The notes under the pieces: model-generated
What the model was told of the DNA's origin: nothing
The model's database searches: none
The model's input: only the letters and a program-made list of their open reading frames with translations
Shown: piece after piece, positions 5,437 through 21,569 of the stretch
Position numbering within the stretch: the first letter of the stretch is position 1
Layout of the letters: every line of letters starts with the position of its first letter
Origin: Dethiosulfatarculus sandiegensis
Lineage (GTDB): Bacteria > Desulfobacterota > Desulfarculia > Desulfarculales > Desulfarculaceae
DNA length: 24,000 nt
NCBI RefSeq assembly: GCF_000931935.2
Contig: NZ_AZAC01000027.1
Span: 7,194-31,193, forward strand
Direction: 5' to 3'
Program-made: the position numbers and the translations under genes

Positions 5437-6612
5437 TCAGGGGCTGGCGGGGCCTTGGCGCTTGGCATTTTGGGGGGGCCACTCCCGGGAGTCCGGCATT
5501 GGTGGTTTTTGCTCGGGGTCTGCGAATCGGTTGGCGATGGCTTGGAACTCATTCTGAACGGCCAGAAAGGCCTCCACCAGAACAGGGTCAAAGTGGGACC
5601 CGATTTGTTGGGTGATGATATCCGCTGCCTGGTCGTGAGTGCTCGGCTGCTTGTAGGCCCGTTTGGAGATCAAGGCGTCGTATACGTCTGCCAAGGCCAT
5701 GATGCGACCGGATAGGGGGATCTCCTCACCGGCCAGTCCCCGGGGGTAACCGCTTCCGTCCCATCTTTCGTGATGGGTATGGGCGATGTCTTTGGCATGC
5801 ACTAAAAATGAGGGGATGTTCTTGTCCAGAAACAGTTTTTCGCTGTTCTCCAGGGTTCGGCGCCCCAGTTCGCAGTGGCCTTGCATGATCGCGAATTCCC
5901 GCTGGGTCAGCGGGCCCGGCTTGAACAGTATGGCGTCCGGCACGCCCACCTTGCCGATGTCGTGCAAAGGGGCTGATTTGAAAAAGAGTCGGATCATATC
6001 CAGGTCCAGCTGGCCGGTGTAAGGCGAATTGCTTAAGAGCCGCTTGGCCAGGGTGTCCACATAGAACTGAGTGCGCAGAATATGCCCGCCGGTCTCGTCG
6101 TCCCTGGTCTCGCACAGTGTGGTCAGGCTGTGGATGATCACATCCTGGGTGAGCAAGAGCTCCCGGGTCCGCTCCTGCACTTTTTCCTCCAGGATCTCGT
6201 TTTGTTGCTTTTGTTCGCGGCTGGCCAGCACCAGGGATAGGTGAGTCTTGAGGCGGGCCTGCACCTCCAACACTTCAAAGGGTTTGGTGATATAGTCCAC
6301 CGCCCCGAGTTTAAACCCCCTGGTTTTGTCCCCGACCTCACTCATGGCGGTCAGGAATATAACCGGAATTCCGGCTGTGGTCGCTTCAGCTTTGAGCCGT
6401 CGGCAGACCTCGTAGCCATCCAGCCCGGGCATGAGAATGTCCAAAAGGATCAAATCCGGTGGTGATTCATAAATCGCCTCCAGGGCTGCATGCCCGTCCA
6501 TGGCCACCGAGACATCATAATCATCGCCCAGCGCATCCACCATTATGTCCACATTGGCCTCGCTGTCATCCACAACCAGCACTTTACAACCCCTTAGATC
6601 CTTGATTGGCAT
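5437..6612 (-). CDS. Response regulator with HD-GYP output domain (RpfG-type, predicted c-di-GMP phosphodiesterase)
   Basis: N-terminal receiver: KVLVVDDSEAN...DLILLDILMPGLDGYEV...TAMSE...K. C-terminal HD-GYP: LHDIGKVGVPDAIL...GHCELG...HHERWDGSGYPRGL. GAAGGAA SD lies 7 nt before the ATG. The gap to the kinase stop is 4 nt. Confidence 0.9.
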   Translation of the reverse strand: MPIKDLRGCKVLVVDDSEANVDIMVDALGDDYDVSVAMDGHAALEAIYESPPDLILLDILMPGLDGYEVCRRLKAEATTAGIPVIFLTAMSEVGDKTRGFKLGAVDYITKPFEVLEVQARLKTHLSLVLASREQKQQNEILEEKVQERTRELLLTQDVIIHSLTTLCETRDDETGGHILRTQFYVDTLAKRLLSNSPYTGQLDLDMIRLFFKSAPLHDIGKVGVPDAILFKPGPLTQREFAIMQGHCELGRRTLENSEKLFLDKNIPSFLVHAKDIAHTHHERWDGSGYPRGLAGEEIPLSGRIMALADVYDALISKRAYKQPSTHDQAADIITQQIGSHFDPVLVEAFLAVQNEFQAIANRFADPEQKPPMPDSREWPPQNAKRQGPASP

Positions 6613-6616
6613 ATTG

Positions 6617-9460
6617 TTATTCCTTCAATTTTTCCAGAAGCGCTTCGGCCAGGGGCAGGGCCTTTTTGAACTTGTATTTACCTATGAACTTGCCCAGGTC
6701 GGAGAACTCAACACAGTGCTCCGGCGACCATCCCATTTCCTTGAGTCGGTCGAAACTCTCCTTGCAGGGTTTGGGTTTTTTGGCCCGCAGATGGGGCAGC
6801 ATCTCCTCCAGGGCGGTGGCCAATTCCGCAGGCGATGCCGCCGCCTCGTCGGTTGCCGGTGCGGCCTGCGCGGCCTCGTTCGCTCCCAATGGACCCAGCG
6901 CTTGCACCAGGGCCTCCAACTCGGTGCCGAAGGTCTTCAGCAAAGAGGGCAGAGTGGCCTTTTGTCCCTCTTTCACCGCCGATTCAATTGTCGCGGCCAC
7001 ACATTGCAACTGCTTCGCGCCCACGTTTCCTGCCACACCCTTGATGCTGTGAGCCAAGCGTTCGGCCTCGGCCATCTTTCCCCTCTCAACCATGCAGGCG
7101 ATCTCTCCCCTGGCTCCGGCGTATTCCTCACGAAATTTAACCAGGAGCTTGCGGTAGAGTTTTTCGTTTCCGCATACACGGTTAAGCCCTTCTTTCATAT
7201 CCACGCCTGCAATGGCCTCGGGCAGGCCGGCTTCCGTCTCCTCCTGCGGGGTAGTGTCCCGGGTTGCCTGGGCCGCTCCGGGCGTAAAACCGCGCACCCC
7301 GGGTTTTATCCATCTCACCAGGGTGGAAAAAAGCTGCCCCACGTCGATGGGCTTGGCCACGTGGTCGTTCATACCGGCCTCCAGCGCTTTTTCGCGGTCG
7401 CCTGCCATTGCGTTGGCGGTCATGGCGATTATGGGCAGATCCGTGAATTGTTCATCCGCCCTTATGGCCCTGCTGGCGGTGTAGCCGTCCATCACCGGCA
7501 TCTGAACGTCCATTAAAACCGCATGGTAGTCACTGGTCTTTATCGCCTCCAGTCCTTCCTGGCCGTTGTTGGCGATATCCACCCGCACTCCGGCCCCCTC
7601 CAGTATCTCCCTGGCCACCTGCTGGTTGATTTCATTGTCCTCCACTAAAAGCAGGTTGGCTCCGCGGATAGGATCAATTAATTCGGCGATTTTTTCTTTC
7701 CCGGTGGAGCGGCGGCGTCTGGTCACAGTCTTTCCAAAGGCATTCATAATGGCGTCGAAGAGAGACGAGGGGCTAACCGGTTTGATCAACAACCCGTCCA
7801 GCCCGTTTTTTTCCATGGCTCTTGCCGCCTCCTCATGGTCATAAGCCGTAACTAATATGATCTTGGGCGGATTTTCAGGGTCTGCGGCTCTATACAGCAT
7901 CTCAGCCGTTTGAATTCCGTCCTTACCGGGCATCTTCCAGTCCAGAAGGATCAAATCAAAGGGGTGGTCGGTCAGGGCGGCTTTAAAGACCTCCAGGGCC
8001 TTGTCACCACTGGGGGCGTCTTCTACGTCCAAGGAAAACTCAGCCAGCATTTCTTCGAAAATCTTACGGGCGGTTTTGTTGTCATCCACCACCAGGGCCC
8101 GCATGCCGGTTAAATCCTGGGACAGCTTAAGGGGCTTTTCTTCCTTTTGTTCGCTTAAATTGAACTGGGCCGTAAATATAAAAGAGCTGCCGATCCCGAC
8201 CTCGCTCTCCACCCAAATTTCGCCGTTCATCATCTCCACCAGCCTTTTGCTGATGGTCAGCCCCAGGCCGGTGCCGCCGTATTTGCGAGTGGTCGAGCTG
8301 TCGGCTTGGGTGAACGCCTTGAACAGCTTTGCGCTTTGCTCGGGAGTCATGCCTATTCCAGAATCACGCACCGTAAACTTCAGGTCCGCCTTTCCCGTTT
8401 TTTGTTTTACTAAGTCGGTGGATACAACAATTTCCCCACGTTCGGTGAATTTCACTGCATTGTTGCCCAGGTTCACCAGTATTTGGCTGAGGCGCAAGGG
8501 ATCTCCCACCAGGTAATGCGGCACGTCGGCGCCCCAGTGAAAAAGGACTTCCAGGTCATCTTTTTCCTGGGCTTTCACTGTGATCATATTCGCCACGTTT
8601 TCCAGGGTCTCGTTCAGGTCGAAATCCACCTGTTCCATATCCATTTTGCCGGCTTCGATCTTGGAGAAATCTAAAATGTCGTTGATCAGGCCCAACAGCG
8701 ATTTGGCGGAAACATCTATTTTTCGTAGGTAATCAATTTGCTTAGGGGTTAGATCTGTCTTGAGTGCCAGATGGGCCATTCCGATTATGGCGTTCATGGG
8801 TGTTCTGATTTCATGGCTCATATTGGCCAGGAAATCGCCTTTTGCCTTGGTGGCAGTCTGGGCGTCCCGCTTGGCCTTTTCCAGGTCTTCCAATAGATTC
8901 AACATGGCCCGCCGGGAACTGGCCAGTTCCTTTACCTGGATCTCGAGAGCCTCGCTGTTTCTTTCCGCCTCTTCCTTGGCAAGGCGGATTTCTTCTGCGG
9001 AAACCTCCAGTTCCTCGGTCTGCCTTTGCAGATCACGGAGCATTTCTTCCCTGGAGGGCTGGGCGAGCATTTTTTTCTGCTCTGTCAGGAAATTCGGTTC
9101 AAAATCCATTTGATCGTGACTAAATGATTTGAAAGCCCAGACAGTGGTGTCCCCATGCTCCGTATGCACCGTCTGTAATGAATCAAAGAAACGGCCGACC
9201 GTAAACGGCGGCTCGACCATGTAGCCATATTGAAAACCAAGCCCCAAGCCTGACAGCCCTTGGCTGTCGTTGAGGCTCACGTTGACTTCCACCTTTTGGT
9301 TTTGCTTGCTTCCGGCCCGGGCCATTTCGGAAAAAATGCTGGCCAGTCTGGTTGATTGCAGTGCTCCATATCCGATCGCTTCTGCCAAACGCAGAATTTT
9401 ACCCCTGGCATCTTTTAAGGATTCCGCAGTGGAAATATGCAAAAGACCAAGCTCGGTCAT
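6617..9460 (-). CDS. Cytoplasmic hybrid sensor histidine kinase: unassigned N-terminal domain, coiled coil, HisKA, HATPase, two REC domains, Hpt
   Basis: 947 aa with no hydrophobic TM segment. H-box [21 protein letters not shown] boxes [26 protein letters not shown]. Two receivers (ALVVDDNK...[12 protein letters not shown] and [11 protein letters not shown]...[12 protein letters not shown]). C-terminal Hpt motif [12 protein letters not shown]. The gap to the rsbX-like stop is 3 nt. Confidence 0.9.
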
Positions 9461-9463
9461 TTT

Positions 9464-10045
9464 TTAGTTCCTCAAAACAAGGCAACAGGCGTCATCAGTG
9501 CCCTTGCCCAAGTGATGGATTATTTTTTTTGCGATGTCGCCTGCCGAGCCCGTCAAAAGGCCCGGATAATCCAGAAGATCAAAGTTTTCGCGCACACCGT
9601 CCGAAGTCAGCACCAGGGTGTCTCCCACGTGGAAATCCACCTTGAGCTCCTTTGGAGTTGGCGATCTAAAACCCAAGATGCCTCCCCTGGGCACGAATTT
9701 GTAAGCGCCGCCGCCGTATATGCGGGTGTTGATATTGCCCACACCCACATAGGAAAGTTGGCGGTTTTGCAGATTAACCCGACACATGGCGGCAACCGCT
9801 CCCCTGGTGCCCTTGAGGTGTTTGTGCAGCCTCCAGGTGAGGTCCACCAGGTTACTCTTGTAGTTCTCAGCCAGAAACTCTTCGGCCATTAAGGCCACCT
9901 GGTGGGCTTTATTCCCATGCCCCAAGACGTCGATCAGGGCCACAAAGGCCGTTTTGCCTCCTAACTTGATCACTCCTGTGTCTCCACAAGCGTCATCCGG
10001 CCCTTCCAAAGAGTATTTTTCCAGGTGAGCATCCAGTTGGGGCAT
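9464..10045 (-). CDS. rsbX: RsbX-like PP2C/SpoIIE-family serine phosphatase
   Basis: About 193 aa. GDTGVI...ALIDVLGHGNKAH...GTRGAVAAM...YVGVGNI...GDTLVLTSDG matches the RsbX/SpoIIE phosphatase pattern in order and in size. I prefer the ATG at 10045: GGAGGA SD lies 5 nt upstream and the start overlaps the rsbT-like stop as TGATG. The track start is 10057. Confidence 0.75.
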   Translation of the reverse strand: MPQLDAHLEKYSLEGPDDACGDTGVIKLGGKTAFVALIDVLGHGNKAHQVALMAEEFLAENYKSNLVDLTWRLHKHLKGTRGAVAAMCRVNLQNRQLSYVGVGNINTRIYGGGAYKFVPRGGILGFRSPTPKELKVDFHVGDTLVLTSDGVRENFDLLDYPGLLTGSAGDIAKKIIHHLGKGTDDACCLVLRN

Positions 10046-10485
10046 CAGTTCCTCCATTTGAGTGCGGTAACCGTGGTCCCTACGCCTGGAGATGACTCAA
10101 GGCTGAACTCATCCATGATTCTTTTTACGCTGGGCAACCCAAGTCCCAGGCCGGCGCCTCCACTGAAATGATCTTGCATGGCCTGTTCAATATCATGAAT
10201 CCCGGGGCCGGAATCCCGGGCGACCACCTCAATGCCCTCTCGCTCGCCTTCCATGATAATTCTTATGATCACTTGCCCGCGACCGGCATAACGCAAAATG
10301 TTGGTGGCCAGTTCCGAAACAGCCGAAGCTATCAAGAACTGCCGGTTTTTTTCAAAACCCATGTCGCGGGTAATGCTCCGAGCCGCGCTGACCGTAGTTG
10401 CGATGTCCGAAGGCTCAAACAGGTTGATCAAGGTCTCGTCAATAACCCGGGATCGATTCGTCAATCTGCCTCTCAATGGGGTCAT
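10045..10485 (-). CDS. rsbT: RsbT-like serine/threonine kinase (anti-sigma-factor-type HATPase)
   Basis: SELATNILRYAG (N box), ARDSGPGI (G1) and GGAGLGLGLPSVKRIMDEF (G2). It is small and sits between rsbS-like and rsbX-like genes. I prefer the ATG at 10485 (AGGAAGAGGA SD directly upstream) over the track start at 10539. Either way it overlaps the rsbS-like 3' end. Confidence 0.8.
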   Translation of the reverse strand: MTPLRGRLTNRSRVIDETLINLFEPSDIATTVSAARSITRDMGFEKNRQFLIASAVSELATNILRYAGRGQVIIRIIMEGEREGIEVVARDSGPGIHDIEQAMQDHFSGGAGLGLGLPSVKRIMDEFSLESSPGVGTTVTALKWRN

Positions 10486-10912
10486 TTTCCTCTTCCTGCG
10501 TATTATGATCCTCAAGATCTTCTTCTGTAGGATTTTCACTTTGGGAATCGCCGCGCAAAATCTCCAATCCGTCTTTCATGGTCAGGGCGGTTTCCAAGTC
10601 ATCCAACTCTATATCCAGGTCCACCAGGGCCGAAGCAACGCCGGCCTGGAAACCCACAAAAACGGCTCTTTTCCCCAACAGCTTGATCATGCGGAAGGTC
10701 TGGGCCAGTAACCCGAAGAGCACCGAATCAAGCAATCGCACCCGGGAAACGTCCAGCACCACGCCGCTTAAGGGTATTTTTTCCACCTTGGCCAGCACCT
10801 GCTCCCGTAACATCTGAAGTTCACGATCATCCGGCTCAGCGTTAACCGAAGCAACCAGACAGTCATCCACCACATGCATGCCGTCGCCGTTATGGGAAAT
10901 GACTTTCGACAT
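10439..10912 (-). CDS. rsbS: RsbS-like single-STAS-domain stressosome scaffold protein with acidic C-terminal tail
   Basis: 157 aa. The STAS pattern GVVLDVSRVRLLDSVLFGLL...LLGKRAVFVGFQAGVASALVDL contains the conserved DS phospho-serine position. About 37 acidic extra residues follow at the C terminus. Confidence 0.8.
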   Translation of the reverse strand: MSKVISHNGDGMHVVDDCLVASVNAEPDDRELQMLREQVLAKVEKIPLSGVVLDVSRVRLLDSVLFGLLAQTFRMIKLLGKRAVFVGFQAGVASALVDLDIELDDLETALTMKDGLEILRGDSQSENPTEEDLEDHNTQEEENDPIERQIDESIPGY

Positions 10913-10977: not shown

Positions 10978-11790
10978 TTACCTGGTGCTGATTTCGTAAT
11001 TCAACATTTTAAAGGCATCCAAAAGGGCGTCTTCCAGGGTTGAGTTGGTGGACACCTCGCCCAGGCTTATGCCCAGCTCCACCAGGGTCTCCGCCACCTG
11101 GGCGGATATGCCTGAGATAATACAGCGGCAACCCATTAATTTTGTGGCCTTGGTTATTTTGATCAGATGGTTGGCCACGGCGGTGTCCACTGCGGCAACT
11201 CCCTGGATGTCCAGGATAATTACCTTGGAAGCGGTTTCGGTGATCTTGGTCAGCATGGCGTTCATCATCTGCTGGGCCCGCATGGAGTCCACTACTCCCA
11301 CCACGGGCAAGACCACTATGCGATCCCACAGCTTAATCGCCGGAGTGGATATTTCCTGGATAGTCCGGCTCTGCTCCTTAAGTTTTTTCTCCGCCCGCAG
11401 CCTTTCGGTGATGTCGAGGATATACTCCAGCCCGCCGACGACCGCTCCGCTCCCATCTCTGAGCGAGGCGGCGGTGTACTCAATTGGTATCTTGCGGCCG
11501 TTGATGTTGGCTTCGCTTAGGGCCGTACTCCTTTGGCCGGTTTCCATGGCCTCCTTCATGCGGCATTCCTGGTTGCCGCAATGAGTAGAATTCATCAAGG
11601 ACTTGCAAGGGGCTCCCTTGATCTGCTCCCAGGGCTTGCCCAGCATGACCCGGCCTGCTGCGTTCATGAATATCACGTGCAGGTTCCGGTCAACAGCCAT
11701 CACCGGCGTTGGTATCTGCTCTATAAGAGTCAACGCCAGCTCACTATTCATCTCTTCTTTGGCTATGGGATTTTTTATTGTCATCGCCAT
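10978..11790 (-). CDS. rsbR: RsbR-like stressosome sensor: N-terminal PAS domain with Cys/His cluster plus C-terminal STAS domain
   Basis: 270 aa. The C-terminal half, TPAIKLWDRIVVLPVVGVVDSMRAQQMM...IILDIQGVAAVDTAVANHLIKITKATKLMGCRCIISGISAQVAETLVELGI, is the characteristic RsbR STAS signature. The N-terminal half looks like PAS (IPTPVMAVDRNLHVIFMNAAG...LEYILDITER). Confidence 0.85.
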   Translation of the reverse strand: MAMTIKNPIAKEEMNSELALTLIEQIPTPVMAVDRNLHVIFMNAAGRVMLGKPWEQIKGAPCKSLMNSTHCGNQECRMKEAMETGQRSTALSEANINGRKIPIEYTAASLRDGSGAVVGGLEYILDITERLRAEKKLKEQSRTIQEISTPAIKLWDRIVVLPVVGVVDSMRAQQMMNAMLTKITETASKVIILDIQGVAAVDTAVANHLIKITKATKLMGCRCIISGISAQVAETLVELGISLGEVSTNSTLEDALLDAFKMLNYEISTR

Positions 11791-11871
11791 GTTCCTTTTA
11801 GTGATATTAGGCCGTTTATAGGGATCACGAGGGCGGCCCTTTTACGCAAAACTCCATCCGCCTCCGTGGCT

Positions 11872-14800
11872 CTAATTTGCTATCTTATATTTTTTCGGCA
11901 GCCCCCCGACCTTAAGTAGCTCATTTATTTCTTCCTTCAGGGAAATCATCATCTCTTCTCTCCCCACCATCAGACGGCTGAAGCGCTCCAACTCGCCTAA
12001 ATTGCGCCGCAACTCCTCCTCGGCTTTCTTTTGTACGGTCACGTCCATGATCGTACCCACCATGCGAGTCACCAGGCCGTTATCATCATACTCAACTGCC
12101 TTGCCTTTACTTACCTGCCAGCGCAGCTCCCCCGATCCCAGGACCACCCGGTAGGTGACCTCATAATTGTCCCGCCCTCCCCGGCGGTACTTGTCCATCA
12201 TTTCGTCCATCATCCGGCGGTCGTCTTGATGAACGGCATCCCGCCAGAAGCGGTAGGGGTCTTCCAACTCCTCCAGGTCCACCTTCATCAGCTCGGCCCA
12301 GCGTCTATCCACCAGGATTTGGCTGGCCTGCAGGTCGGCGTCCCATATCCCCAGGTTGCCGCCCTCCAAGGCCAGATCAAGCCTTTGCTTGTTTTCCCGT
12401 ACACTAAGCTCCGCCTTTTTTTGGGCGCTGATGTCTGCAACCATGGCAAAGGAACCCGTCTTCCGGCCTGAATCGTCCAGAAAGGGGGTGGCATTGAACA
12501 GACAGGGGATCAGGACGCCGTCGGGCCTTGAAATGGATATCTCGTAGGCGGTTTCTTTCTGTTTTTCCCGTAGAGCCAGTTGCTTTTTTAAAATTTGCAG
12601 GTTTTCCTTGTCATAGAAATCAAAGATATGTCTATCCACAACCTGATCCCTGGGTCTTCCCAGTATGCGGCACATGGCCTCATTGACGTCTTTGGTATAG
12701 CCTTGGTTGTCTATGAACCAAAATCCGTCCAGAGCCGTTCCCAGGATTTTTTTCATGTAGTTTTCGCTGGCCTTGAGGGCGTTTTCCGCCTCTTTTCGCT
12801 CTGTAAAATCATGGGCGCTGGTGCGGAAGCCGGTGAACACTCCCTTATCATCAAAAACCGGGTTCCAGGAAATGGCCACCCACACCTGAAGCCCGTCCCT
12901 ACGTACAACCCGGAAGGGCAGGTCATTAGAGACTTTGCCGTCCAAGGCATGCTCCAAGCTGTCCCGCCAGGTCTGGTGGTCGTCAGGATGGATAAGAGGC
13001 AGGGGGTAGTCTCCCATGGCTTTGCATTCCTCGACCGAATAGCCGGTGATGCGTTCCACTGCCGGGTTGAGCCAGATCAAGCGGCCTTGTGCATCATGCC
13101 ACCCCTCCCAGTCATAGGTGTAGTCGGCGATGATGCGGAATTCATCCTGGGAGCGGCGCAAGGCATCCTCGGCCGCCTTGCGTTCTGTTATGTCGCGCAC
13201 CGTCCCCACTGCGTACCATTTTTCATCGAGCTGGAAGGAGGAGAGGGTAACCTCTACCGGGAATTCCTCGCCTCTGCGGTTACGGGCGGTGATTTCCGTG
13301 GTCTTGCCAAGCACCGGGCCCTGGCCGGTCTCGGCAAAGTGCTTTAAGCCGACGGCTATCTTGTTTCGGTACTTTTCCGGCGCGGCCATGTCATGGAAGG
13401 ACATGCCCTTGGCCTCTTCGGTGTTATAACCGAAGAGCCTCTCGGCGGCTGGATTCCAAAACAGCATCTTGCCATTACTGTCAATCATGACCAGGGCGTC
13501 CTCCACCGCTTGGCTCATGGCCATGACCATGCGTTGGTTGGCCAAGTTTTCCTGCTCGGCAAGCTTACGCTCTGTTATGTCCAGGATAAAACCATTGAAG
13601 ATAAGGCCATCGGCGGCGCTGGTGGGAAAGCCATTTAGCCTCACCCATTTAATCTCTCCGTCGGGCAGGAGGATGCGGCCCTCAAAATTGATGCTTTTTT
13701 CCTGCTCGACCGCTTGCTGAAAATTATTTTCGAGCCGTTTTCTATCATCCTGGTGGATTACCAGCAGGCGCTCTTCGTTTATAATCACCTCGGCCGGTGC
13801 TCCAAAGAACTCACTGGCCTGTTGGTTGAGATAGATGTATTTTCGTTTTCCATTGAAGGGAACATGCAGCTGAAATATCGCTCCCGGCACGTTGGCGGCC
13901 ATGGAAGTGAACCGTTCTTCCGCCTTTTTACGTTCAGCCACCTCTCCTGCGATCCGCCGGTTCCAGGCTATGACCACGGCCAGGATAAGGGCAAATACGA
14001 GAGCCGCCAGACCGCCCACTCGCGCCACATCTCCCCAGTCAAGCTGCCTGACCACCCTGATCTTCAGCCACTTTTCATAGATTAATGCTTTCTCTTTCTC
14101 GTCGAAACCGGGCAGAAATTTGTCCAGGATACTGACCAGCTCCGGCCAATCCTTACGGACTCCAATGGAAATTTTGTAGGTATAGGGAGATGTCGCGGCA
14201 ACCTTGAGGTTTTTGATGCCTTCTTTTCTTTTTACGAATTCCAAGGAAGCAACCGTTCCCACGGCGGCCATGGCCTCGCCGTCCGCGACCATGCGAAACG
14301 CCTCCGTCATGTTGTCGGTCAGCTTTAATCTTAATTCGGGGCGCTCCTTGGCGATAAATTGTTGGACGGCGTAACCTTTGCCTAAGGCAATAGTTTTCCC
14401 TTTTAAAGATGCAAGCCCCGAAACTATCGGCGCGTCATCTCTTGTGATAATCACCAGGGGGGCTTTGAAATAAGGTTTGGTGAAATTAAGATATTCTTCC
14501 CGTTCCTTGGTGTGAACAATCGATGAAACTGCATCCACGCGCTTGGCTTTGGCTTCATCAAGCATCTGATTCCAGGTAAGGCCCTTGACGGGTGAAAGTT
14601 CAATATTTAGTTGGCGGCTTAAAATGCGGATGTAATCAGAGCAAATACCCGCGTAATCTCCCTGACCGTCAAAGTATTCGAATGGGACCCAGGTTGGGTG
14701 CACGCCGAGTCGAATTTTTTTGTGATCCTTTATAAAGGCCTTTTCTTTGGCTGTAAGCTGGGTCTGGCTTATTCCTTGGTCTTTTAGCTCAACCCATTGC

Positions 14801-17022
14801 TGTCGAGTGTTCTTTACCTCCCTGGTGGTCAAATCACCCAAGGCCCTGTCTATAATAGCGGCCAGTTGAGGCCAGTCCTTACGCACTCCGATGGTTAAAA
14901 CCGAGCCCACTGAATCGCGCCGACCCTGGATTTGTAAATTGGAAATCAATTCTTTATTGATTATCCAAGAGGCCACGGCCCGGTTTCCCACATAAGCATC
15001 GGCCCGGCCTCGGGACACGGCATCCAGGGCCATGGCGGTGTTTGGGTATTCAACAATTTTTATTTGGCCGGGGTATTTTTTCTTGAAAGCCTTTACAGTC
15101 CCAAAGCCCTTTTCAAGAGCCAGGGTTTTGCCTTTCAAGTCTTCTTCCTTTTCATAATAGGGGCTTTCTTTACGGGCCACTATGACGTGGGGTATGTTCA
15201 GGTAGGGTCTGGTGAAGTTAAGGTATTTTTTACGCTCCGGCTTGGGTGTCACGTCCATGATTGCGTCTATTTCCTTATCCCTTGCCATGGCGAGATTAGT
15301 TTTAAAAGGCCCGGGCACAATTTCGAATATATCTCCGAGCCTCTCGCTCAATAGCTTCAGATAGCCAATATCAATACCGCTGGGTTTGCCTGAGGCAGAC
15401 AGAAAAGTGATCGGGGGCCAGGCATTCATGACCCCAATGCTGATTTTAGGATGTTGGGCCAGCCATTTTTTTTCCTGGGCAGATAATGTAAAGCGAGGGG
15501 CGCTATCTGCCTTTAGAGCTTTGATGGGCAGCCAGCGAAATTTCAGAGCCTGTATGTCTTCCCTTGATATTGCGTTGAGACCCTTTTGCAAAATATCACG
15601 CAATATGGATTGGTCTTTCAAGGTGGCCATGTGAAGCCTGGTTGCCTCGGGCTTCTCAAGTGACACTTCATCGACAATTTTCAAAGAGGGGATAACATTT
15701 TCCCCAAGTAAATACGTGATGACGCCCAGGCTGCCGATAAATGCGTCCGCTTTTCCCAAGGAAACAGCCTTCAGGCCGTCCAGGACATTATCCGCCTTGA
15801 CGGTTTTTATTTCCCGATGTCCTTTTGTTATGACCCTGGAAATGGAAAAGTCTTCCACTATGGCGAGTTTTTTCCCCGCGAGGTCTTCCAGCCTTCTGAT
15901 ATCCGGGGTTTTTTCATGCACAACCAATACCGAGGGATTGGCAGCGTAATAATTGCTCAGTGCGAATTCACGCTCCCTTTCCGCTGTCTTGTATATGGCA
16001 GGGAGAATGTCTATTTTTTTAGCTCTGAAATCCTTTAACAATTCGGCCCAGGTCAGTCCGTAGACAAATTTTAGCCTTAGCCCCACCTTTTGAGCCGCCA
16101 GGCGCAGCAGGTCATTGGAATAGCCCGTGGGGTTGCCGCTTAGTACGAAGTCAAAGGGAGGCCAGTCTGTTTCAGCGCCGACCACCACCGGGGTCTTTCT
16201 TTCGGTCAGCCATTTCCTTTCCGCTTGGCTGAGAGTAACCTCTGTTTCATCCTTGGCTAAATACCGAGGAAACTGTCTGTTCTTAATGGTTAGAATTTCT
16301 TTTGGGGAAATGGCGGCCAAGCCTTTGTTGACCTGGCCCAGCAGTGTGGGGCGATCCTTGGCAACCCCGGCCAATAGGGGATCTTTTGAAAATGGTGTTG
16401 CGCCTTTGATTATTTTTTCGCTTAAGCCCATTTGTGTAAGGAGCGCCTGGAAGGAAATTGCTTCAGCCGCCACGGCCCTGACCTCGCCTTGGTCCAATGC
16501 GCGGGCCAGTTGTTCCGGGGCGGCTATTTGCCTAAAGGCAATGTCAGGGTGTTTTTGAGTCAAAAGGCCTATGAAAAAGGAATCCTTGAGCACTGCCACA
16601 TCTTTGCCGGTCAACTCGGATGGCGCCACCGGGCCGCCCTTTTTGAGATAGAACAGACTGGTGTTAAAGGTGAACAAAGGTTTGGAAAAGTTCAGCCACT
16701 TGATCATGTAGGGTTCGCGCACAAGCCCACCGTGGATATCCGCCCGGCCGTCGCCCACCATGCGCAGAGTCTCGCCATAGGGCGCGGAGACGAACTCCAC
16801 CTTTATGCCCGTTTTTTCCGACCACAACCGCCAGATGTCCACCAGCCATCCCCGGGCCCGGCCTTTGTCGTCCAGTGTGCAAAAGGGCGGGTAATCATCA
16901 CAGATGGCCACATTCAACGAAATAAATTTTTTGGGGGCGCCATGGGCCGGGTCAGAAAGCGCGCACAGGCAAATCCAGACAGCCAGGGTTACTGCCAGGC
17001 TCCCTGTTAAAAATGCTTTCAT
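11872..17022 (-). CDS. Giant membrane sensor protein: signal peptide, 4 tandem periplasmic solute-binding (SBP_bac_3-like) domains, 1 TM helix, 5 PAS domains, short coiled-coil tail, no catalytic output domain
   Basis: 1716-aa ORF. Signal peptide: MKAFLTGSLAVTLAVWICLCALSDPAHGA. Four repeated modules (about aa 33-250, 263-497, 512-743, 755-986) each contain WPPF/YPPF, F(S/T)(K/R)P(Y/L)(F/L) and GK(T/K)(L/I)A motifs. Modules are joined by L(S/T)xxEKxW/F linkers. TM helix GGLAALVFALILAVVIAW is encoded at 13963-14022. Five PAS units each end in D(I/F)T(E/V)(R/Q)K. GAGG SD lies 5 nt before the ATG. Confidence 0.9.
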   Translation of the reverse strand: MKAFLTGSLAVTLAVWICLCALSDPAHGAPKKFISLNVAICDDYPPFCTLDDKGRARGWLVDIWRLWSEKTGIKVEFVSAPYGETLRMVGDGRADIHGGLVREPYMIKWLNFSKPLFTFNTSLFYLKKGGPVAPSELTGKDVAVLKDSFFIGLLTQKHPDIAFRQIAAPEQLARALDQGEVRAVAAEAISFQALLTQMGLSEKIIKGATPFSKDPLLAGVAKDRPTLLGQVNKGLAAISPKEILTIKNRQFPRYLAKDETEVTLSQAERKWLTERKTPVVVGAETDWPPFDFVLSGNPTGYSNDLLRLAAQKVGLRLKFVYGLTWAELLKDFRAKKIDILPAIYKTAEREREFALSNYYAANPSVLVVHEKTPDIRRLEDLAGKKLAIVEDFSISRVITKGHREIKTVKADNVLDGLKAVSLGKADAFIGSLGVITYLLGENVIPSLKIVDEVSLEKPEATRLHMATLKDQSILRDILQKGLNAISREDIQALKFRWLPIKALKADSAPRFTLSAQEKKWLAQHPKISIGVMNAWPPITFLSASGKPSGIDIGYLKLLSERLGDIFEIVPGPFKTNLAMARDKEIDAIMDVTPKPERKKYLNFTRPYLNIPHVIVARKESPYYEKEEDLKGKTLALEKGFGTVKAFKKKYPGQIKIVEYPNTAMALDAVSRGRADAYVGNRAVASWIINKELISNLQIQGRRDSVGSVLTIGVRKDWPQLAAIIDRALGDLTTREVKNTRQQWVELKDQGISQTQLTAKEKAFIKDHKKIRLGVHPTWVPFEYFDGQGDYAGICSDYIRILSRQLNIELSPVKGLTWNQMLDEAKAKRVDAVSSIVHTKEREEYLNFTKPYFKAPLVIITRDDAPIVSGLASLKGKTIALGKGYAVQQFIAKERPELRLKLTDNMTEAFRMVADGEAMAAVGTVASLEFVKRKEGIKNLKVAATSPYTYKISIGVRKDWPELVSILDKFLPGFDEKEKALIYEKWLKIRVVRQLDWGDVARVGGLAALVFALILAVVIAWNRRIAGEVAERKKAEERFTSMAANVPGAIFQLHVPFNGKRKYIYLNQQASEFFGAPAEVIINEERLLVIHQDDRKRLENNFQQAVEQEKSINFEGRILLPDGEIKWVRLNGFPTSAADGLIFNGFILDITERKLAEQENLANQRMVMAMSQAVEDALVMIDSNGKMLFWNPAAERLFGYNTEEAKGMSFHDMAAPEKYRNKIAVGLKHFAETGQGPVLGKTTEITARNRRGEEFPVEVTLSSFQLDEKWYAVGTVRDITERKAAEDALRRSQDEFRIIADYTYDWEGWHDAQGRLIWLNPAVERITGYSVEECKAMGDYPLPLIHPDDHQTWRDSLEHALDGKVSNDLPFRVVRRDGLQVWVAISWNPVFDDKGVFTGFRTSAHDFTERKEAENALKASENYMKKILGTALDGFWFIDNQGYTKDVNEAMCRILGRPRDQVVDRHIFDFYDKENLQILKKQLALREKQKETAYEISISRPDGVLIPCLFNATPFLDDSGRKTGSFAMVADISAQKKAELSVRENKQRLDLALEGGNLGIWDADLQASQILVDRRWAELMKVDLEELEDPYRFWRDAVHQDDRRMMDEMMDKYRRGGRDNYEVTYRVVLGSGELRWQVSKGKAVEYDDNGLVTRMVGTIMDVTVQKKAEEELRRNLGELERFSRLMVGREEMMISLKEEINELLKVGGLPKKYKIAN

Positions 17023-17771: not shown

Positions 17772-18460
17772 ATGGAACTCCGGGTCTTGTTAGAGATCAG
17801 CTGTATTATCGGTGAGACACTCAATCTGTCTCAAAGCCTGGAGCGGGTGTTGGGCATTATGTCCGGCACCCTGGCCATGAAACGCGCCACAGTCACCTTG
17901 CGGGATCCCCGCAGCGTCGGACTGCCCATCTTATGCCTCCCAAGGCCTCGGCGTGGAAAAAATGAAGGGCGGGGTGTACAGCCCATGGCGGGGGCGTCAC
18001 CGGCGGCCGCATATTTGAGACCGCCCACCCCTTTTATGTTCCGGATGTAAGCCGCGAGCCGCTCTTCTTGAATAAAACCCAGTCCCGCGATCTGGATAAA
18101 GGCAAGGTGGCCTTTGTGGGGGCGCCGATTTTCCTCAAGGGCGAGTCCATTGGAGTCCTGAATGTGGACTGTCTTTTTGGCGAGGAGATCTCCGACTGCC
18201 GTAACGTGCTGGTAAGCGGTATTGGCGAGGCCCCCGTGCACTGTTGGACGGTTATGGGGGTGGAGCCTTTGGAAGTTACCGGTTCTATAGAAGAAGCTTT
18301 GAGATTTATCTATACCGGGGATGACTTGTTGGCCATGCGGGTGCGTAAGGCCAAGGTCTGCTCCGTTTAAAAATTGGGGCGGGCCGGCGGTATGGGTTGC
18401 ATGTAGATCGGCTTGGGAGAAGAGAATTTTTAGCTGAAGGCCACCGGTAATGCTGGTAGT
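17772..18460 (+). pseudogene. Decayed sigma-54-dependent transcriptional activator (GAF domain plus AAA+ remnant), disrupted by frameshifts, stops and deletions
   Basis: Three frames must be joined to read a GAF domain. Frame 0: MELRVLLEISCIIGETLNLSQSLERVLGIMSGTLAMKRATVTLRDP. Frame +1: ASQGLGVEKMKGGVYSP. Frame +2: GGGVTGGRIFETAHPFYVPDVSREPLFLNKTQSRDLDKGKVAFVGAPIFLKGESIGVLNVDCLFGEE. This is NifA-like. Downstream only fragments resembling AAA+ motifs remain (NVLVSG.., ..KAKVCSV*KLGRAGG resembling QAKLLRVLQE.EFERVGG), with in-frame stops and no C-terminal HTH. The right boundary is approximate. Confidence 0.6.
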
Positions 18461-21179: not shown

Positions 21180-21569
21180 ATTATTTTATAAGTTATAACA
21201 AATTATCTGAGCAATTCTAGCGGTAGATTATAATTTTGTAGCGGGATATGACGCCTGCTATTACCTATGATATTGCTTTTCTTTAATTTGGTCTGGGAAT
21301 ATAACCCATGGCTTGCCGGAAAGCCCTTGTGATTGGTGGGGAGGATCAAGCTGAGGCCTTTAATGGAGAGAGGCTTTTCAAGGCTCGTAGACTATATGGC
21401 GCACAATAAGGCAACTAGGTGTTAAATGCCGATGAGGCTCAATGCTTTTGACTTGAGGTGGATTTCACAGCCCGCGCTCTGGGAATAGCTGAAAGCAGTC
21501 TATGGATTAGGTCGAGGTGCTTTATACTAGTTTTCCTGTTTGACATCTCGAGCTTTAAGAGTTACCTAT

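What the first reader, a model, noticed from the sequence alone, without database searches (positions are those of the whole stretch)
11872..17022. Output-less giant sensor (4 periplasmic SBP domains + 5 PAS) placed directly upstream of a stressosome operon
Seen in sequence: a 1716-aa protein begins with a signal peptide. It carries four consecutive solute-binding modules of about 230 aa (encoded at roughly 16273-16926, 15532-16236, 14794-15489 and 14065-14760). One TM helix (13963-14022) and five cytoplasmic PAS domains follow. The protein then ends, with no HisKA/HATPase, GGDEF, EAL, HD-GYP, MCP or STAS domain. The stop (11872) is only 81 bp from the start of the rsbR-like gene on the same strand, so no kinase gene can be hidden in between.

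Established: tandem venus-flytrap/SBP domains feed histidine kinases in BvgS/EvgS-type sensors. Stressosomes are cytoplasmic hubs whose natural inputs are largely unknown.

Inference: this protein may be a trans-acting extracytoplasmic input device. It could pass ligand information through its PAS array to the PAS-STAS RsbR protein, or to the cytoplasmic kinase, encoded next door. That would give a soluble stressosome a membrane antenna. I know of no description of such an arrangement.
Basis: partly seen in the sequence, partly recalled or inferred. Interest (0 to 1): 0.8.

Follow-up and report, generated by a model that had tools for sequence, protein, structure and literature searches.

The report
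Kinase-less membrane sensor with conserved terminal helix
The giant sensor is real and has no known output domain, but it ends in a strongly conserved, unannotated 48-residue helix shared by thousands of PAS sensors, and sensors with its type of ending are usually encoded just upstream of a hybrid kinase / c-di-GMP phosphodiesterase module, so it most likely signals to that kinase in trans, with the stressosome as one of two alternative co-inputs.

Summary
ORF 11872-17022(-) encodes a 1716-aa protein with a signal peptide, 4 SBP_bac_3 domains, one TM helix and 5 PAS domains. It has no HisKA, HATPase, GGDEF, EAL, HD-GYP, MCP or STAS domain. It lies 81 bp upstream of rsbR-rsbS-rsbT-rsbX, a hybrid HK and a REC-HD-GYP gene.

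"Output-less" is misleading. The last 48 residues (F-x6-RE-x2-MI-x-LK-x-EIN ... KYKIV) form a conserved module absent from Pfam, NCBIfam and PDB sequences. A profile of it hits 13,402 protein clusters (2,999 at E<=1e-10), nearly always at the extreme C-terminus after a PAS domain. AlphaFold models it as one 44-residue helix.

Among 44 KYKIV-type tail genes, 23 sit directly upstream of a V4R protein, a hybrid HK and REC-HD-GYP. Seven sit upstream of RsbRSTX, a hybrid HK and REC-HD-GYP, and 4 directly upstream of a hybrid HK.

Five stressosome operons found through RsbR itself lack a tail sensor. Four of them have non-HK effectors. Across my sample the sensor is linked to the hybrid kinase module more consistently than to the stressosome.

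Best reading: a kinase-less, trans-acting sensor whose terminal helix couples it to the hybrid HK, which here also takes stressosome input. The direct partner is unproven. I rate it a new variant of a known kind; interest 0.62.

The parts
11872..17022 (-). Sensor gene, 1716 aa: signal peptide, 4 SBP_bac_3, TM helix, 5 PAS, conserved terminal helix
16939..17022 (-). N-terminal signal-peptide-like hydrophobic segment (about residues 1-28)
   Evidence: Hydropathy peak at residues 1-8 and sequence MKAFLTGSLAVTLAVWICLCALSDPAHG. Cleavage is inferred.
14053..16935 (-). Four tandem periplasmic family-3 solute-binding (venus-flytrap) domains: residues 30-252, 268-502, 517-748 and 760-990
   Evidence: Pfam SBP_bac_3 with 4 stretches, E 2.5e-93. 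Self-phmmer gives the boundaries. Sub-threshold NCBIfam match to EvgS residues 185-529.
13963..14022 (-). Single transmembrane helix (residues 1001-1020)
   Evidence: It is the only internal Kyte-Doolittle peak above 1.6.
12028..13935 (-). Five cytoplasmic PAS domains (about residues 1030-1665)
   Evidence: Pfam PAS families. TIGR00229 gives 5 stretches. Five D[IVF][TS]x[RQ]K PAS ends. AlphaFold model of PAS5 has pLDDT 94.
11875..12018 (-). Conserved terminal module (residues 1669-1716): EELRRNLGELERFSRLMVGREEMMISLKEEINELLKVGGLPKKYKIAN. Key residues are F1681, R1688, E1689, L1695, K1696, E1698, N1700 and Y1712.
   Evidence: Alignment A1. Profile search found 13,402 clusters. Per-column conservation over 162 tails. 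Modelled as a continuous helix with pLDDT above 90. Not in Pfam, NCBIfam or PDB sequences.
11791..11871 (-). 81-nt intergenic gap with no ORF, terminator-like or promoter-like site; a purine-rich stretch (AAAAGGAAC) sits just before the rsbR ATG
10978..11790 (-). RsbR-type PAS-STAS protein (stressosome scaffold/sensor)
   Evidence: Pfam PAS_4 and STAS. 1625 homologues, the top 120 at 63-77% identity, several named RsbR by their sources.
10439..10912 (-). RsbS-type single STAS protein
10045..10539 (-). RsbT-type serine kinase (HATPase_c_2). The true start is probably downstream of the first start codon.
9464..10057 (-). RsbX-type PP2C phosphatase (SpoIIE family)
6617..9460 (-). Soluble hybrid histidine kinase: N-terminal ~150-aa domain, coiled coil, HisKA, HATPase_c, 2 REC, Hpt
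9011..9460 (-). N-terminal ~150-aa domain of the kinase. The same domain begins every effector encoded after rsbX in this stressosome family. I infer it receives the stressosome/RsbT signal.
   Evidence: A6 profile hits the effectors of L124-L128 at E 1e-27 to 1e-33. Weak hhalign match to RsbT (E 3e-4, prob 39%).
8870..8929 (-). Coiled-coil motif [20 protein letters not shown] just before the H-box. It is shared by the kinases paired with V4R or stressosome modules and is a candidate contact for the terminal helix (inferred).
5437..6612 (-). REC-HD-GYP response regulator (putative c-di-GMP phosphodiesterase); HD at residue 217 and GYP at residue 288 are present

Best explanation
The protein is a kinase-less, membrane-anchored sensor. 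It belongs to a large, undescribed family defined by a conserved 48-residue C-terminal signalling helix that ends in KYKIV.

Proposed flow: solute binding to the four periplasmic venus-flytrap domains is passed through the single TM helix and the five PAS domains to the terminal helix. That helix probably forms a parallel coiled coil in a dimer, and it has an invariant Arg-Glu pair. It acts as the output by docking in trans on the soluble hybrid histidine kinase encoded in the same operon. That kinase controls the REC-HD-GYP c-di-GMP phosphodiesterase by phosphorelay.

In this locus the same kinase also receives cytoplasmic input from the RsbR/S/T/X stressosome, through its N-terminal ~150-aa domain. 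The kinase would therefore integrate a periplasmic and a cytoplasmic signal. In most relatives a small V4R protein takes the stressosome's place.

Shown here: the anatomy, the conservation of the tail, and the synteny. Inferred: dimeric coiled coil, trans docking, the kinase rather than RsbR as direct partner, the direction of signal flow, and the ligand class.

Rough probabilities: trans-acting input to the downstream module about 0.65; direct partner is the kinase about 0.4; RsbR (or V4R in relatives) about 0.25.
For: 1. Anatomy as described, with no catalogued output domain.

2. Of the 120 best homologues, 25 have no known output domain and end in the same motif. Others with the same SBP+PAS sensor end in HisKA-HATPase-REC-Hpt or in a PP2C domain, so the tail occupies the output position.

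3. The tail profile finds 13,402 clusters at E<=1e-3 and 2,999 at E<=1e-10. In the 150 listed, the match ends within a few residues of the C-terminus in nearly all.

4. The tail (mean column identity 56% in A1) is far more conserved than the sensors overall (26-43%).

5. AlphaFold of PAS5 plus tail has pLDDT 94 and shows one helix of 44 residues continuing from the PAS core. The closest solved folds are PAS/LOV domains with J-alpha helices, LOV-kinase linkers and effector-less short LOV proteins.

6. Synteny. Of 44 tail genes in genome loci, 23 are followed within 17-162 nt by V4R, hybrid HK and REC-HD-GYP. Seven are followed by RsbR-S-T-X, hybrid HK and REC-HD-GYP. Four are followed directly by a hybrid HK. 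Operons often carry two tail sensors.

7. Tails linked to V4R and to RsbR are indistinguishable, which points to a shared target.

8. Stressosome operons found from the RsbR side lack tail sensors (5 of 5). Four of them have non-HK effectors.

9. RsbR shows no residues specific to tail-linked operons.

10. Fusions. In L107/L112 a single protein reads REC, full tail (KYPVVE), a 20-residue linker, then ATLNLLEDL coiled coil and HisKA. In L128 a fused SBP-PAS-hybrid HK sits in the same neighbourhood.

11. No terminator in the 81-nt gap.
Against: - No physical interaction was tested, and no multimer modelling was possible.
- In a broader tail subfamily (RELRMIELK; other C-terminal peptides) only 18 of about 62 genes with downstream sequence are followed by an HK, V4R or RsbR gene. 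The ten other downstream genes I scanned include solute-binding proteins, a FIST protein and further kinases, so the family is not uniformly wired.
- The sensor gene sits next to V4R or RsbR, not next to the kinase. That order would also fit binding to those proteins.
- One operon with the same kinase type (L128) has no tail sensor, so the sensor is dispensable for that kinase.
- Similarity between the tail and the kinase coiled coil is weak (hhalign E 7e-4, prob 27%).
- Internal copies of the motif occur as linkers before PocR or CHASE domains, so the helix can also work in cis.
- The genome sample was seeded with one tail subfamily and is dominated by Desulfobacterota.
Confidence: 0.55

Rival explanations
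1. One reading: the sensor feeds the stressosome. Its terminal helix or PAS array would bind the N-terminal PAS 'turret' of RsbR (or the V4R protein in relatives). That would give the cytoplasmic stressosome a membrane antenna. RsbT would then relay the signal to the kinase's N-terminal domain.
For: The sensor gene is immediately upstream of rsbR (81 nt here, 17-65 nt in seven relatives) rather than next to the kinase. Adjacent genes often encode interacting proteins (established knowledge). V4R (58-83% identity) and RsbR (about 54% identity in the PAS half and 69-88% in the STAS half) are unusually conserved, as hubs tend to be. PAS-V4R fusion proteins exist (PMC12826048). Prli42 shows that stressosomes can be membrane-tethered through RsbR (PMC6614362).
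Against: The same tail would have to bind two unrelated folds, a V4R domain and a PAS-STAS protein, and tails of the two classes are indistinguishable. Five of five stressosome operons with 65-68% identical RsbR have no tail sensor. No RsbR position distinguishes linked from unlinked operons, and PAS identity is the same within and between groups (53.5% vs 54.0%).
Confidence: 0.25
2. The terminal helix has no heterologous partner in the operon. It would only mediate dimerisation or higher-order clustering of PAS sensors, or target something encoded elsewhere. Co-location with the kinase operon would then reflect co-regulation only.
For: In the broader subfamily many tail genes have no kinase, V4R or RsbR gene downstream (42 of about 62). 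The motif also occurs internally as a linker. AlphaFold shows a plain long helix with no globular output. Effector-less short LOV proteins with J-alpha helices are known, and to my knowledge their partners are unidentified (own knowledge; structures listed).
Against: Near-invariant polar residues (R, E, K, E, N) and a conserved extreme C-terminal peptide are more than simple dimerisation needs. The KYKIV subtype is tightly syntenic with one kinase family across several lineages. Siblings carry true outputs at the same position.
Confidence: 0.17
3. The gene is a decayed or truncated sensor kinase that lost its transmitter.
For: Siblings with the same sensor architecture carry HisKA-HATPase-REC-Hpt.
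Against: The ORF is intact. It ends in a motif conserved in thousands of clusters at exactly the C-terminus. No transmitter remnant fits in the 81-nt gap. A 99.2%-identical contig keeps the ORF intact, with 8 synonymous and 8 non-synonymous changes and none in the tail. The tail does not align to the H-box.
Confidence: 0.02

Closest known systems
BvgS/EvgS-type sensor kinases (tandem periplasmic venus-flytrap domains, TM, PAS, HisKA-HATPase-REC-Hpt)
   Same: Signal peptide, tandem family-3 solute-binding domains, a single TM helix and cytoplasmic PAS. There is a partial NCBIfam match to EvgS residues 185-529 (E 5.8e-33, far below cut-off). Direct homologues with a fused hybrid-kinase transmitter exist.
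   Different: Four VFT domains and five PAS domains. No transmitter, receiver or Hpt domain. A 48-residue conserved helix sits where the kinase core would begin.
Stand-alone sensor proteins that regulate a co-encoded hybrid kinase in trans (H-NOX/HnoK, NosP/NahK)
   Same: A sensor without enzymatic output is encoded next to a soluble hybrid kinase that feeds c-di-GMP enzymes. The window kinase gives a sub-threshold match to the NahK/ErcS family model. A FIST (NosP-type) gene follows one tail gene.
   Different: The sensor is a huge membrane protein with periplasmic domains, not a small soluble haem protein. Coupling would use a dedicated conserved terminal helix. Binding has not been shown.
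Stressosome modules with two-component or c-di-GMP outputs (e.g. Vibrio vulnificus RsbRSTX with a downstream kinase and regulator)
   Same: RsbR-RsbS-RsbT-RsbX followed by a kinase and a c-di-GMP-related response regulator (PMC9237108, PMC10014275 listed).
   Different: RsbR carries a PAS rather than a globin domain. The output regulator is an HD-GYP protein. A kinase-less membrane sensor is encoded directly upstream. I found no description of this in the literature I could search.
Prli42, membrane miniprotein tethering the Listeria stressosome
   Same: The concept of a membrane component linking a cytoplasmic stressosome to the envelope (PMC6614362, PMC9840623).
   Different: Prli42 is a membrane miniprotein with no sensory domains, whereas this protein has 1716 residues. 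I made no sequence comparison. My evidence does not favour RsbR as this sensor's partner.
Short LOV proteins (PpSB1-LOV, SBW25-LOV, etc.): PAS core plus J-alpha helix, no effector
   Same: They are among the closest structural matches to PAS5 plus tail. The protein ends in a helix after the PAS core, and the output is presumably protein-protein contact.
   Different: They are single-domain soluble photoreceptors with a shorter, non-homologous helix. They lack the conserved RE...LKxEIN...KYKIV signature.

Membership tests
BvgS/EvgS-type VFT sensor histidine kinase | Tandem periplasmic family-3 SBP/VFT domains followed by a TM helix and cytoplasmic PAS | tested here: met
   4 SBP_bac_3, TM at residues 1001-1020, 5 PAS
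BvgS/EvgS-type VFT sensor histidine kinase | HisKA/HATPase_c transmitter (plus REC and Hpt) in the same polypeptide | tested here: not met
   No such Pfam or NCBIfam match down to E 0.1. The tail does not align to an H-box.
Stressosome RsbR paralogue | C-terminal STAS domain that co-assembles with RsbS | tested here: not met
   No STAS match in the sensor. The STAS proteins are the two downstream genes.
Stressosome operon (neighbouring genes) | RsbR (sensor-STAS), RsbS (STAS), RsbT (HATPase_c_2 kinase) and RsbX (PP2C) in one cluster | tested here: met
   The same order is seen in L005, L006, L022, L028, L030 and L124-L128.
Terminal-helix ('KYKIV tail') PAS sensors (unnamed family defined here) | About 48 residues directly after a PAS end, with the signature F-x6-R-E-x2-M-I-x-L-K-x-E-[IV]-N | tested here: met
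   Window residues 1681-1700 match every invariant column of A1. It is the first sequence of the profile that retrieved 13,402 clusters.
Terminal-helix ('KYKIV tail') PAS sensors (unnamed family defined here) | The motif lies at the extreme C-terminus and ends G-x3-K-Y-K-I-V-[EDQ] | tested here: met
   Ends ...GGLPKKYKIAN. K, Y, K and I are kept. V is replaced by A (5% of tails) and the last residue is N.
Terminal-helix ('KYKIV tail') PAS sensors (unnamed family defined here) | Encoded directly upstream of V4R or RsbRSTX, followed by a hybrid HK and REC-HD-GYP | tested here: met
   Window. 30 of 44 family genes in genome loci have V4R or RsbR next, and 4 more have a hybrid HK.
Trans-acting accessory sensor of a histidine kinase (H-NOX/NosP type) | Co-encoded with the kinase it regulates | tested here: met
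Trans-acting accessory sensor of a histidine kinase (H-NOX/NosP type) | Direct binding to the kinase and modulation of its activity | not testable with these tools
   No multimer modelling is offered, and the structure tool returns no coordinates. Only indirect support from fusions.
Degenerate DHp (pseudo-HisKA) domain | Profile similarity of the tail to the H-box helix of HisKA | tested here: not met
   hhalign aligns only the first half of the tail to the pre-DHp coiled coil (E 7e-4, prob 27%) and nothing to the H-box. The Pfam His_kinase hit is only E 0.1.

The most novel reading that the evidence does not exclude
The 48-residue terminal helix is a new, widespread trans-signalling output module, a universal 'plug'. 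It would let interchangeable kinase-less PAS sensors, often several per operon, dock on and control one hub hybrid kinase that also takes input from a V4R protein or a stressosome. In this window that would couple periplasmic solute sensing and the stressosome into one c-di-GMP decision, giving the stressosome pathway a defined extracytoplasmic input.
Probability: 0.4. Interest if true: 0.8.

Novelty: new variant of a known kind. Interest (0 to 1): 0.62.

Why it matters
Three reasons.

1. PAS proteins annotated only as 'PAS domain S-box protein' or 'transporter substrate-binding domain-containing protein' are usually written off as output-less. Here they share a strongly conserved, unannotated C-terminal module (13,402 clusters in the profile search). 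That gives them a concrete, mutable output element and a family definition.

2. For the KYKIV subtype, synteny predicts a many-sensors-to-one-kinase design. In it, a hybrid kinase / HD-GYP module combines plug-in sensors with a V4R or stressosome co-input. That is a testable architecture for signal integration upstream of c-di-GMP.

3. Natural inputs of stressosome pathways are a long-standing open question. This locus, and cultured carriers such as Desulfobacula phenolica and Niveibacterium terrae, offer a system where a ligand-binding periplasmic sensor and a stressosome meet on one kinase. My data suggest they meet at the kinase rather than at RsbR.

Tried and rejected
- Truncated or pseudogenised kinase: rejected. 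The ORF is intact, the C-terminus is conserved, and a 99.2%-identical contig keeps it.
- Tail as a degenerate DHp/H-box helix: rejected. hhalign gives no H-box alignment, and the Pfam His_kinase hits are only E 0.1-0.16.
- Known family for the tail: none in Pfam or NCBIfam. The only PDB sequence hit is a chance coiled coil, E2F4, at E 0.68.
- Literature: no paper holds the motif strings, 'V4R' with 'stressosome', or a comparable arrangement.
- The search for related loci with the broad tail alignment A1 failed because no stretch was conserved enough. I repeated it with two narrower subfamilies.
The single-sequence model of that domain was unusable (pLDDT 43.6), so no fold search was run on it.
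- Modelling a tail-partner complex through a linker fusion was considered and dropped.
- RsbR residues specific to tail-linked operons: none found.
- Rfam: no RNA family in the window.
- pN/pS between the window and the near-identical contig rests on only 16 differing codons (crude ratio about 0.3), too few to weigh.
Full report
**Observation**

The ORF 11872..17022 on the minus strand is intact and encodes 1716 aa. Pfam reports four SBP_bac_3 stretches (E 2.5e-93) and PAS families only. Nothing resembling HisKA, HATPase_c, GGDEF, EAL, HD, MCP signal or STAS appears down to E 0.1. NCBIfam's PAS model counts five stretches. The periplasmic part gives a partial, sub-threshold match to EvgS.

Self-comparison and hydropathy place the domains as follows:
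- SBP domains at residues 30-252, 268-502, 517-748 and 760-990.
- Five PAS ends at residues 1148, 1277, 1405, 1530 and 1660.

The genes downstream on the same strand are a PAS-STAS RsbR, a STAS RsbS, an HATPase_c_2 RsbT, a SpoIIE-type RsbX, a HisKA-HATPase-REC-REC-Hpt hybrid kinase, and a REC-HD-GYP regulator with HD and GYP motifs present. The 81-nt gap holds no ORF, no terminator-like site and no promoter-like site.

**The protein is not really output-less**

Among the 120 best homologues, many have the same SBP+PAS make-up and no catalogued output domain. Printing their C-termini showed that 25 of them end in the same sequence. The consensus is L-[DE]-E-L-E-R-F-[SN]-R-L-x-[IV]-G-R-E-x-K-M-I-x-L-K-x-E-I-N-x-L-L-x3-G-x3-K-Y-K-I-V-[EDQ].

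The window protein ends ...LGELERFSRLMVGREEMMISLKEEINELLKVGGLPKKYKIAN. Other siblings carry, at the same position after the last PAS, either a hybrid-kinase transmitter or a PP2C (SpoIIE) domain. The tail therefore occupies the output slot.

A 20-sequence alignment of the tail has invariant F, R, E, L, K, E and N. Mean column identity is 56%, while the sensors overall are 26-43% identical. The tail matches nothing in Pfam or NCBIfam. Its only PDB sequence hit is a chance coiled coil.

A profile search of 1.84 billion cluster representatives returned 13,402 proteins at E<=1e-3 and 2,999 at E<=1e-10. In nearly all of the 150 listed, the match ends within a few residues of the C-terminus, and the host proteins range from 50 to about 1,900 aa. 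Their sequences show the tail directly after a PAS end ('DITERK').

AlphaFold on the last PAS plus tail (36-row alignment, pLDDT 94) gives one continuous 44-residue helix leaving the PAS core, followed by about 10 less ordered residues. The closest solved structures are PAS/LOV domains with J-alpha helices, LOV-kinase linkers and effector-less short LOV proteins.

Hydrophobic spacing places the invariant Arg of the G-R-E motif at a core-like position next to a helix-weakening G/N/D. That is my own reading of the sequence, not a test.

**Genomic context from the sensor side**

Six look-ups of SBP+PAS+tail homologues gave two operon types:
- Type A: sensor, RsbR, RsbS, RsbT, RsbX, hybrid HK (about 950 aa), REC-HD-GYP. 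This is seen in the window's near-twin L001, in L005, and in L006 from Desulfobacula phenolica.
- Type B: sensor, a 175-aa V4R protein, hybrid HK (about 915 aa, with a HAMP-like N-terminus by my reading of its sequence), REC-HD-GYP.

A scan of one genome per species with a tail subfamily found 35 more loci, mostly Desulfobacterota. It also found Nitrospiraceae, KSB1 and Bacteroidales MAGs and the betaproteobacterial isolate Niveibacterium terrae.

I annotated these loci with local phmmer, using the window's own proteins and the V4R protein and kinase N-terminus from L002 as queries. The next gene after each of 44 tail genes was:

| Next gene | Count | Spacing |
|---|---|---|
| V4R | 23 | 17-162 nt |
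| RsbR | 7 | 17-65 nt |
| Hybrid HK directly | 4 | |
| Another tail gene | 1 | |
| Nothing recognised, or contig end | 9 | |

Several operons carry two tail sensors. The N-terminal sensor parts vary from about 100 to 1,840 aa, while the tail and the downstream module stay constant. Tails from V4R-linked and RsbR-linked sensors are indistinguishable. For example, L026/L028 and L039-L041 differ by a few residues only.

**Genomic context from the stressosome side**

RsbR of this type is a large, tight family: 1,625 hits, with the top 120 at 63-77% identity. I looked up five members:
- Four are from Desulfovibrionales isolates or genomes (Desulfobaculum, Desulfovibrio inopinatus, Fundidesulfovibrio, Maridesulfovibrio). 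All four have RsbR-S-T-X without any tail motif within 9 kb. Their effectors contain no H-box, and include a PAS-PP2C protein and a PAS-cyclase protein.
- The fifth, from a Desulfobacter genome (L128), has the type-A kinase and HD-GYP regulator but no tail sensor. A 1,713-aa fused SBP-PAS-hybrid kinase follows the operon instead.

RsbR proteins from tail-linked and unlinked operons are equally similar in the PAS half (53.5% within the linked set, 54.0% between sets). They have no position that separates the two sets. In this sample the tail sensor goes with the hybrid HK/HD-GYP output more consistently than with the stressosome.

**The kinase**

Type-A and type-B kinases differ in the first ~150 residues. 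They share the segment EL-x2-[AS]-R-[RK]-A-M-L-N-x2-[ED]-D-L just before the H-box. Nine PAS-fused kinases in the same loci lack it. The 1,663-aa kinase that directly follows a tail gene in L034 has it.

The type-A N-terminal domain also begins every effector encoded after rsbX in L124-L128, whatever the output (profile E 1e-27 to 1e-33). It has a weak profile match to RsbT (E 3e-4, prob 39%). I infer that it receives the stressosome/RsbT signal.

The tail's first half aligns weakly with the shared kinase coiled coil (E 7e-4, prob 27%) and not with the H-box. This rejects a pseudo-DHp reading.

In L107/L112 one protein reads REC, complete tail (...KYPVVE), about 20 residues, ATLNLLEDL coiled coil, HisKA. 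This fusion places the tail and that kinase helix next to each other in cis.

**Limits**

A second tail subfamily (RELRMIELK), scanned in metagenomes, is wired more loosely. About 62 genes had room downstream. The next gene was an HK in 13, V4R in 4, RsbR in 1 and an HD-GYP-like fragment in 1. Ten of the remaining downstream genes were scanned against Pfam: four solute-binding proteins, a FIST protein, four sensor or kinase fragments and a Meth_synt_2 enzyme. Many of these tails end in peptides other than KYKIV.

Internal copies of the motif precede PocR or TM-CHASE domains, so the helix can also act as an in-chain connector. No interaction was tested.

The structure tool gives no coordinates and refuses foreign sequences, so complex modelling was not possible. 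The single-sequence model of the kinase N-domain was unusable.

**Mechanism I commit to**

The protein is a kinase-less membrane sensor. Periplasmic solute binding to BvgS-like tandem venus-flytrap domains is relayed through the TM helix and PAS array to a dimeric terminal helix. That helix docks in trans on the soluble hybrid kinase of the operon, most plausibly on or near its pre-DHp coiled coil. This sets the phosphorelay to the HD-GYP regulator, and hence c-di-GMP hydrolysis. The stressosome feeds the same kinase through the N-terminal domain. In most relatives a V4R protein replaces it.

- Shown: anatomy, tail conservation, synteny.
- Inferred: dimer, docking, partner identity, direction of flow, ligand class.

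Rough probabilities:
- Trans-acting input to the downstream module: about 0.65.
- The kinase is the direct partner: about 0.4.
- RsbR or V4R is the direct partner: about 0.25.
- No partner in the operon: about 0.17.
- Decayed kinase: about 0.02.

**Comparison with known systems**

The sensor half is BvgS/EvgS-like, but the defining transmitter is absent, so it is not a member of that family. Functionally it resembles stand-alone sensors that regulate co-encoded hybrid kinases (H-NOX/HnoK, NosP/NahK) and effector-less short LOV proteins.

Stressosome modules with kinase or c-di-GMP outputs are known in Vibrio (PMC9237108, PMC10014275). A membrane tether for a stressosome is also known: Prli42 (PMC6614362).

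I could not find the conserved tail in Pfam, NCBIfam, PDB sequences or the searchable literature, nor the two operon architectures that follow it. I rate it a new variant of a known kind.

Noticed in passing
window 9011-9460 (-); L124 11377-11830, L125 11353-11790, L126 11353-11790, L127 11327-11780, L128 11233-11690: The first ~150 residues of the window's hybrid kinase form a domain with no Pfam match. The same domain begins every effector encoded after rsbX in this stressosome family, whether the output is a hybrid kinase, PAS-PP2C or PAS-cyclase (profile E 1e-27 to 1e-33). It has a weak hhalign match to RsbT itself (E 3e-4, prob 39%). It looks like a dedicated stressosome-receiver domain.
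   Followed up: partly
L002 15128-15655, L004 14792-15319, L005 6593-7120 and 20 or more further loci (L008-L042): A 175-aa V4R protein with five invariant cysteines near its C-terminus is 58-83% identical across Desulfobacterota, Nitrospiraceae, KSB1 and Bacteroidales MAGs. In nearly all sampled loci it sits between a tail sensor and a hybrid kinase whose N-terminus looks HAMP-like. This conservation is far higher than that of the neighbouring sensors.
   Followed up: partly
L128 15280-18810: In a Desulfobacter genome the same RsbRSTX / hybrid HK / HD-GYP operon has no upstream tail sensor. It is followed instead by a 1,713-aa SBP-PAS-HisKA-HATPase-REC-Hpt protein, a fused counterpart of the window sensor in the same neighbourhood.
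   Followed up: partly
L107 2226-4355 and L112 1494-3623: A kinase reading REC, complete tail motif (ELERFNKVTVGRELRMIELTREVNALLEAAGQAAKYPVVE), about 20 residues, ATLNLLEDL coiled coil, HisKA. The tail and the kinase-type coiled coil are fused in one chain.
   Followed up: no
P0133, P0137, P0134, P0129 (tail then PocR); P0145, P0150 (CHASE proteins): Internal copies of the tail motif occur as connectors 25-60 residues before PocR domains in four proteins. In P0145 one lies about 130 residues before a CHASE domain; in P0150 the best match follows the CHASE domain near the C-terminus. Some proteins carry two copies.
   Followed up: no
window 21413-21416 versus L001 4345-5652: The window is 99.2% identical to ENA contig ERZ21831104:ctg97422l. 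That contig carries an extra ~1.3-kb element (rve and HTH_Tnp_1 transposase genes) between the PepSY_TM gene and a 119-aa ORF. This is an insertion-sequence polymorphism between two near-identical genomes. There is also a small break in the alignment at window 18185-18222.
   Followed up: partly
L125 13407-16431 and L126 14731-17746: In two Desulfovibrionales stressosome loci the effector gene is followed by DUF6272, SiaC and GAF-HD-GYP genes. This suggests a second partner-switching layer feeding a c-di-GMP phosphodiesterase.
   Followed up: no
P0007, P0014, P0017, P0020, P0022, P0024 and others: Many close homologues of the sensor keep the SBP+PAS architecture but end in a PP2C (SpoIIE) domain. 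They are membrane, periplasm-sensing RsbU/RsbP-like phosphatases of 1,900-2,550 aa.
   Followed up: no
L022 1918-2265: Upstream of rsbR in this MAG contig there is only a 115-aa ORF. Its last ~35 residues are a perfect tail, but the preceding sequence is unrelated. It may be a frameshifted or decayed tail sensor, or an assembly artefact.
   Followed up: no
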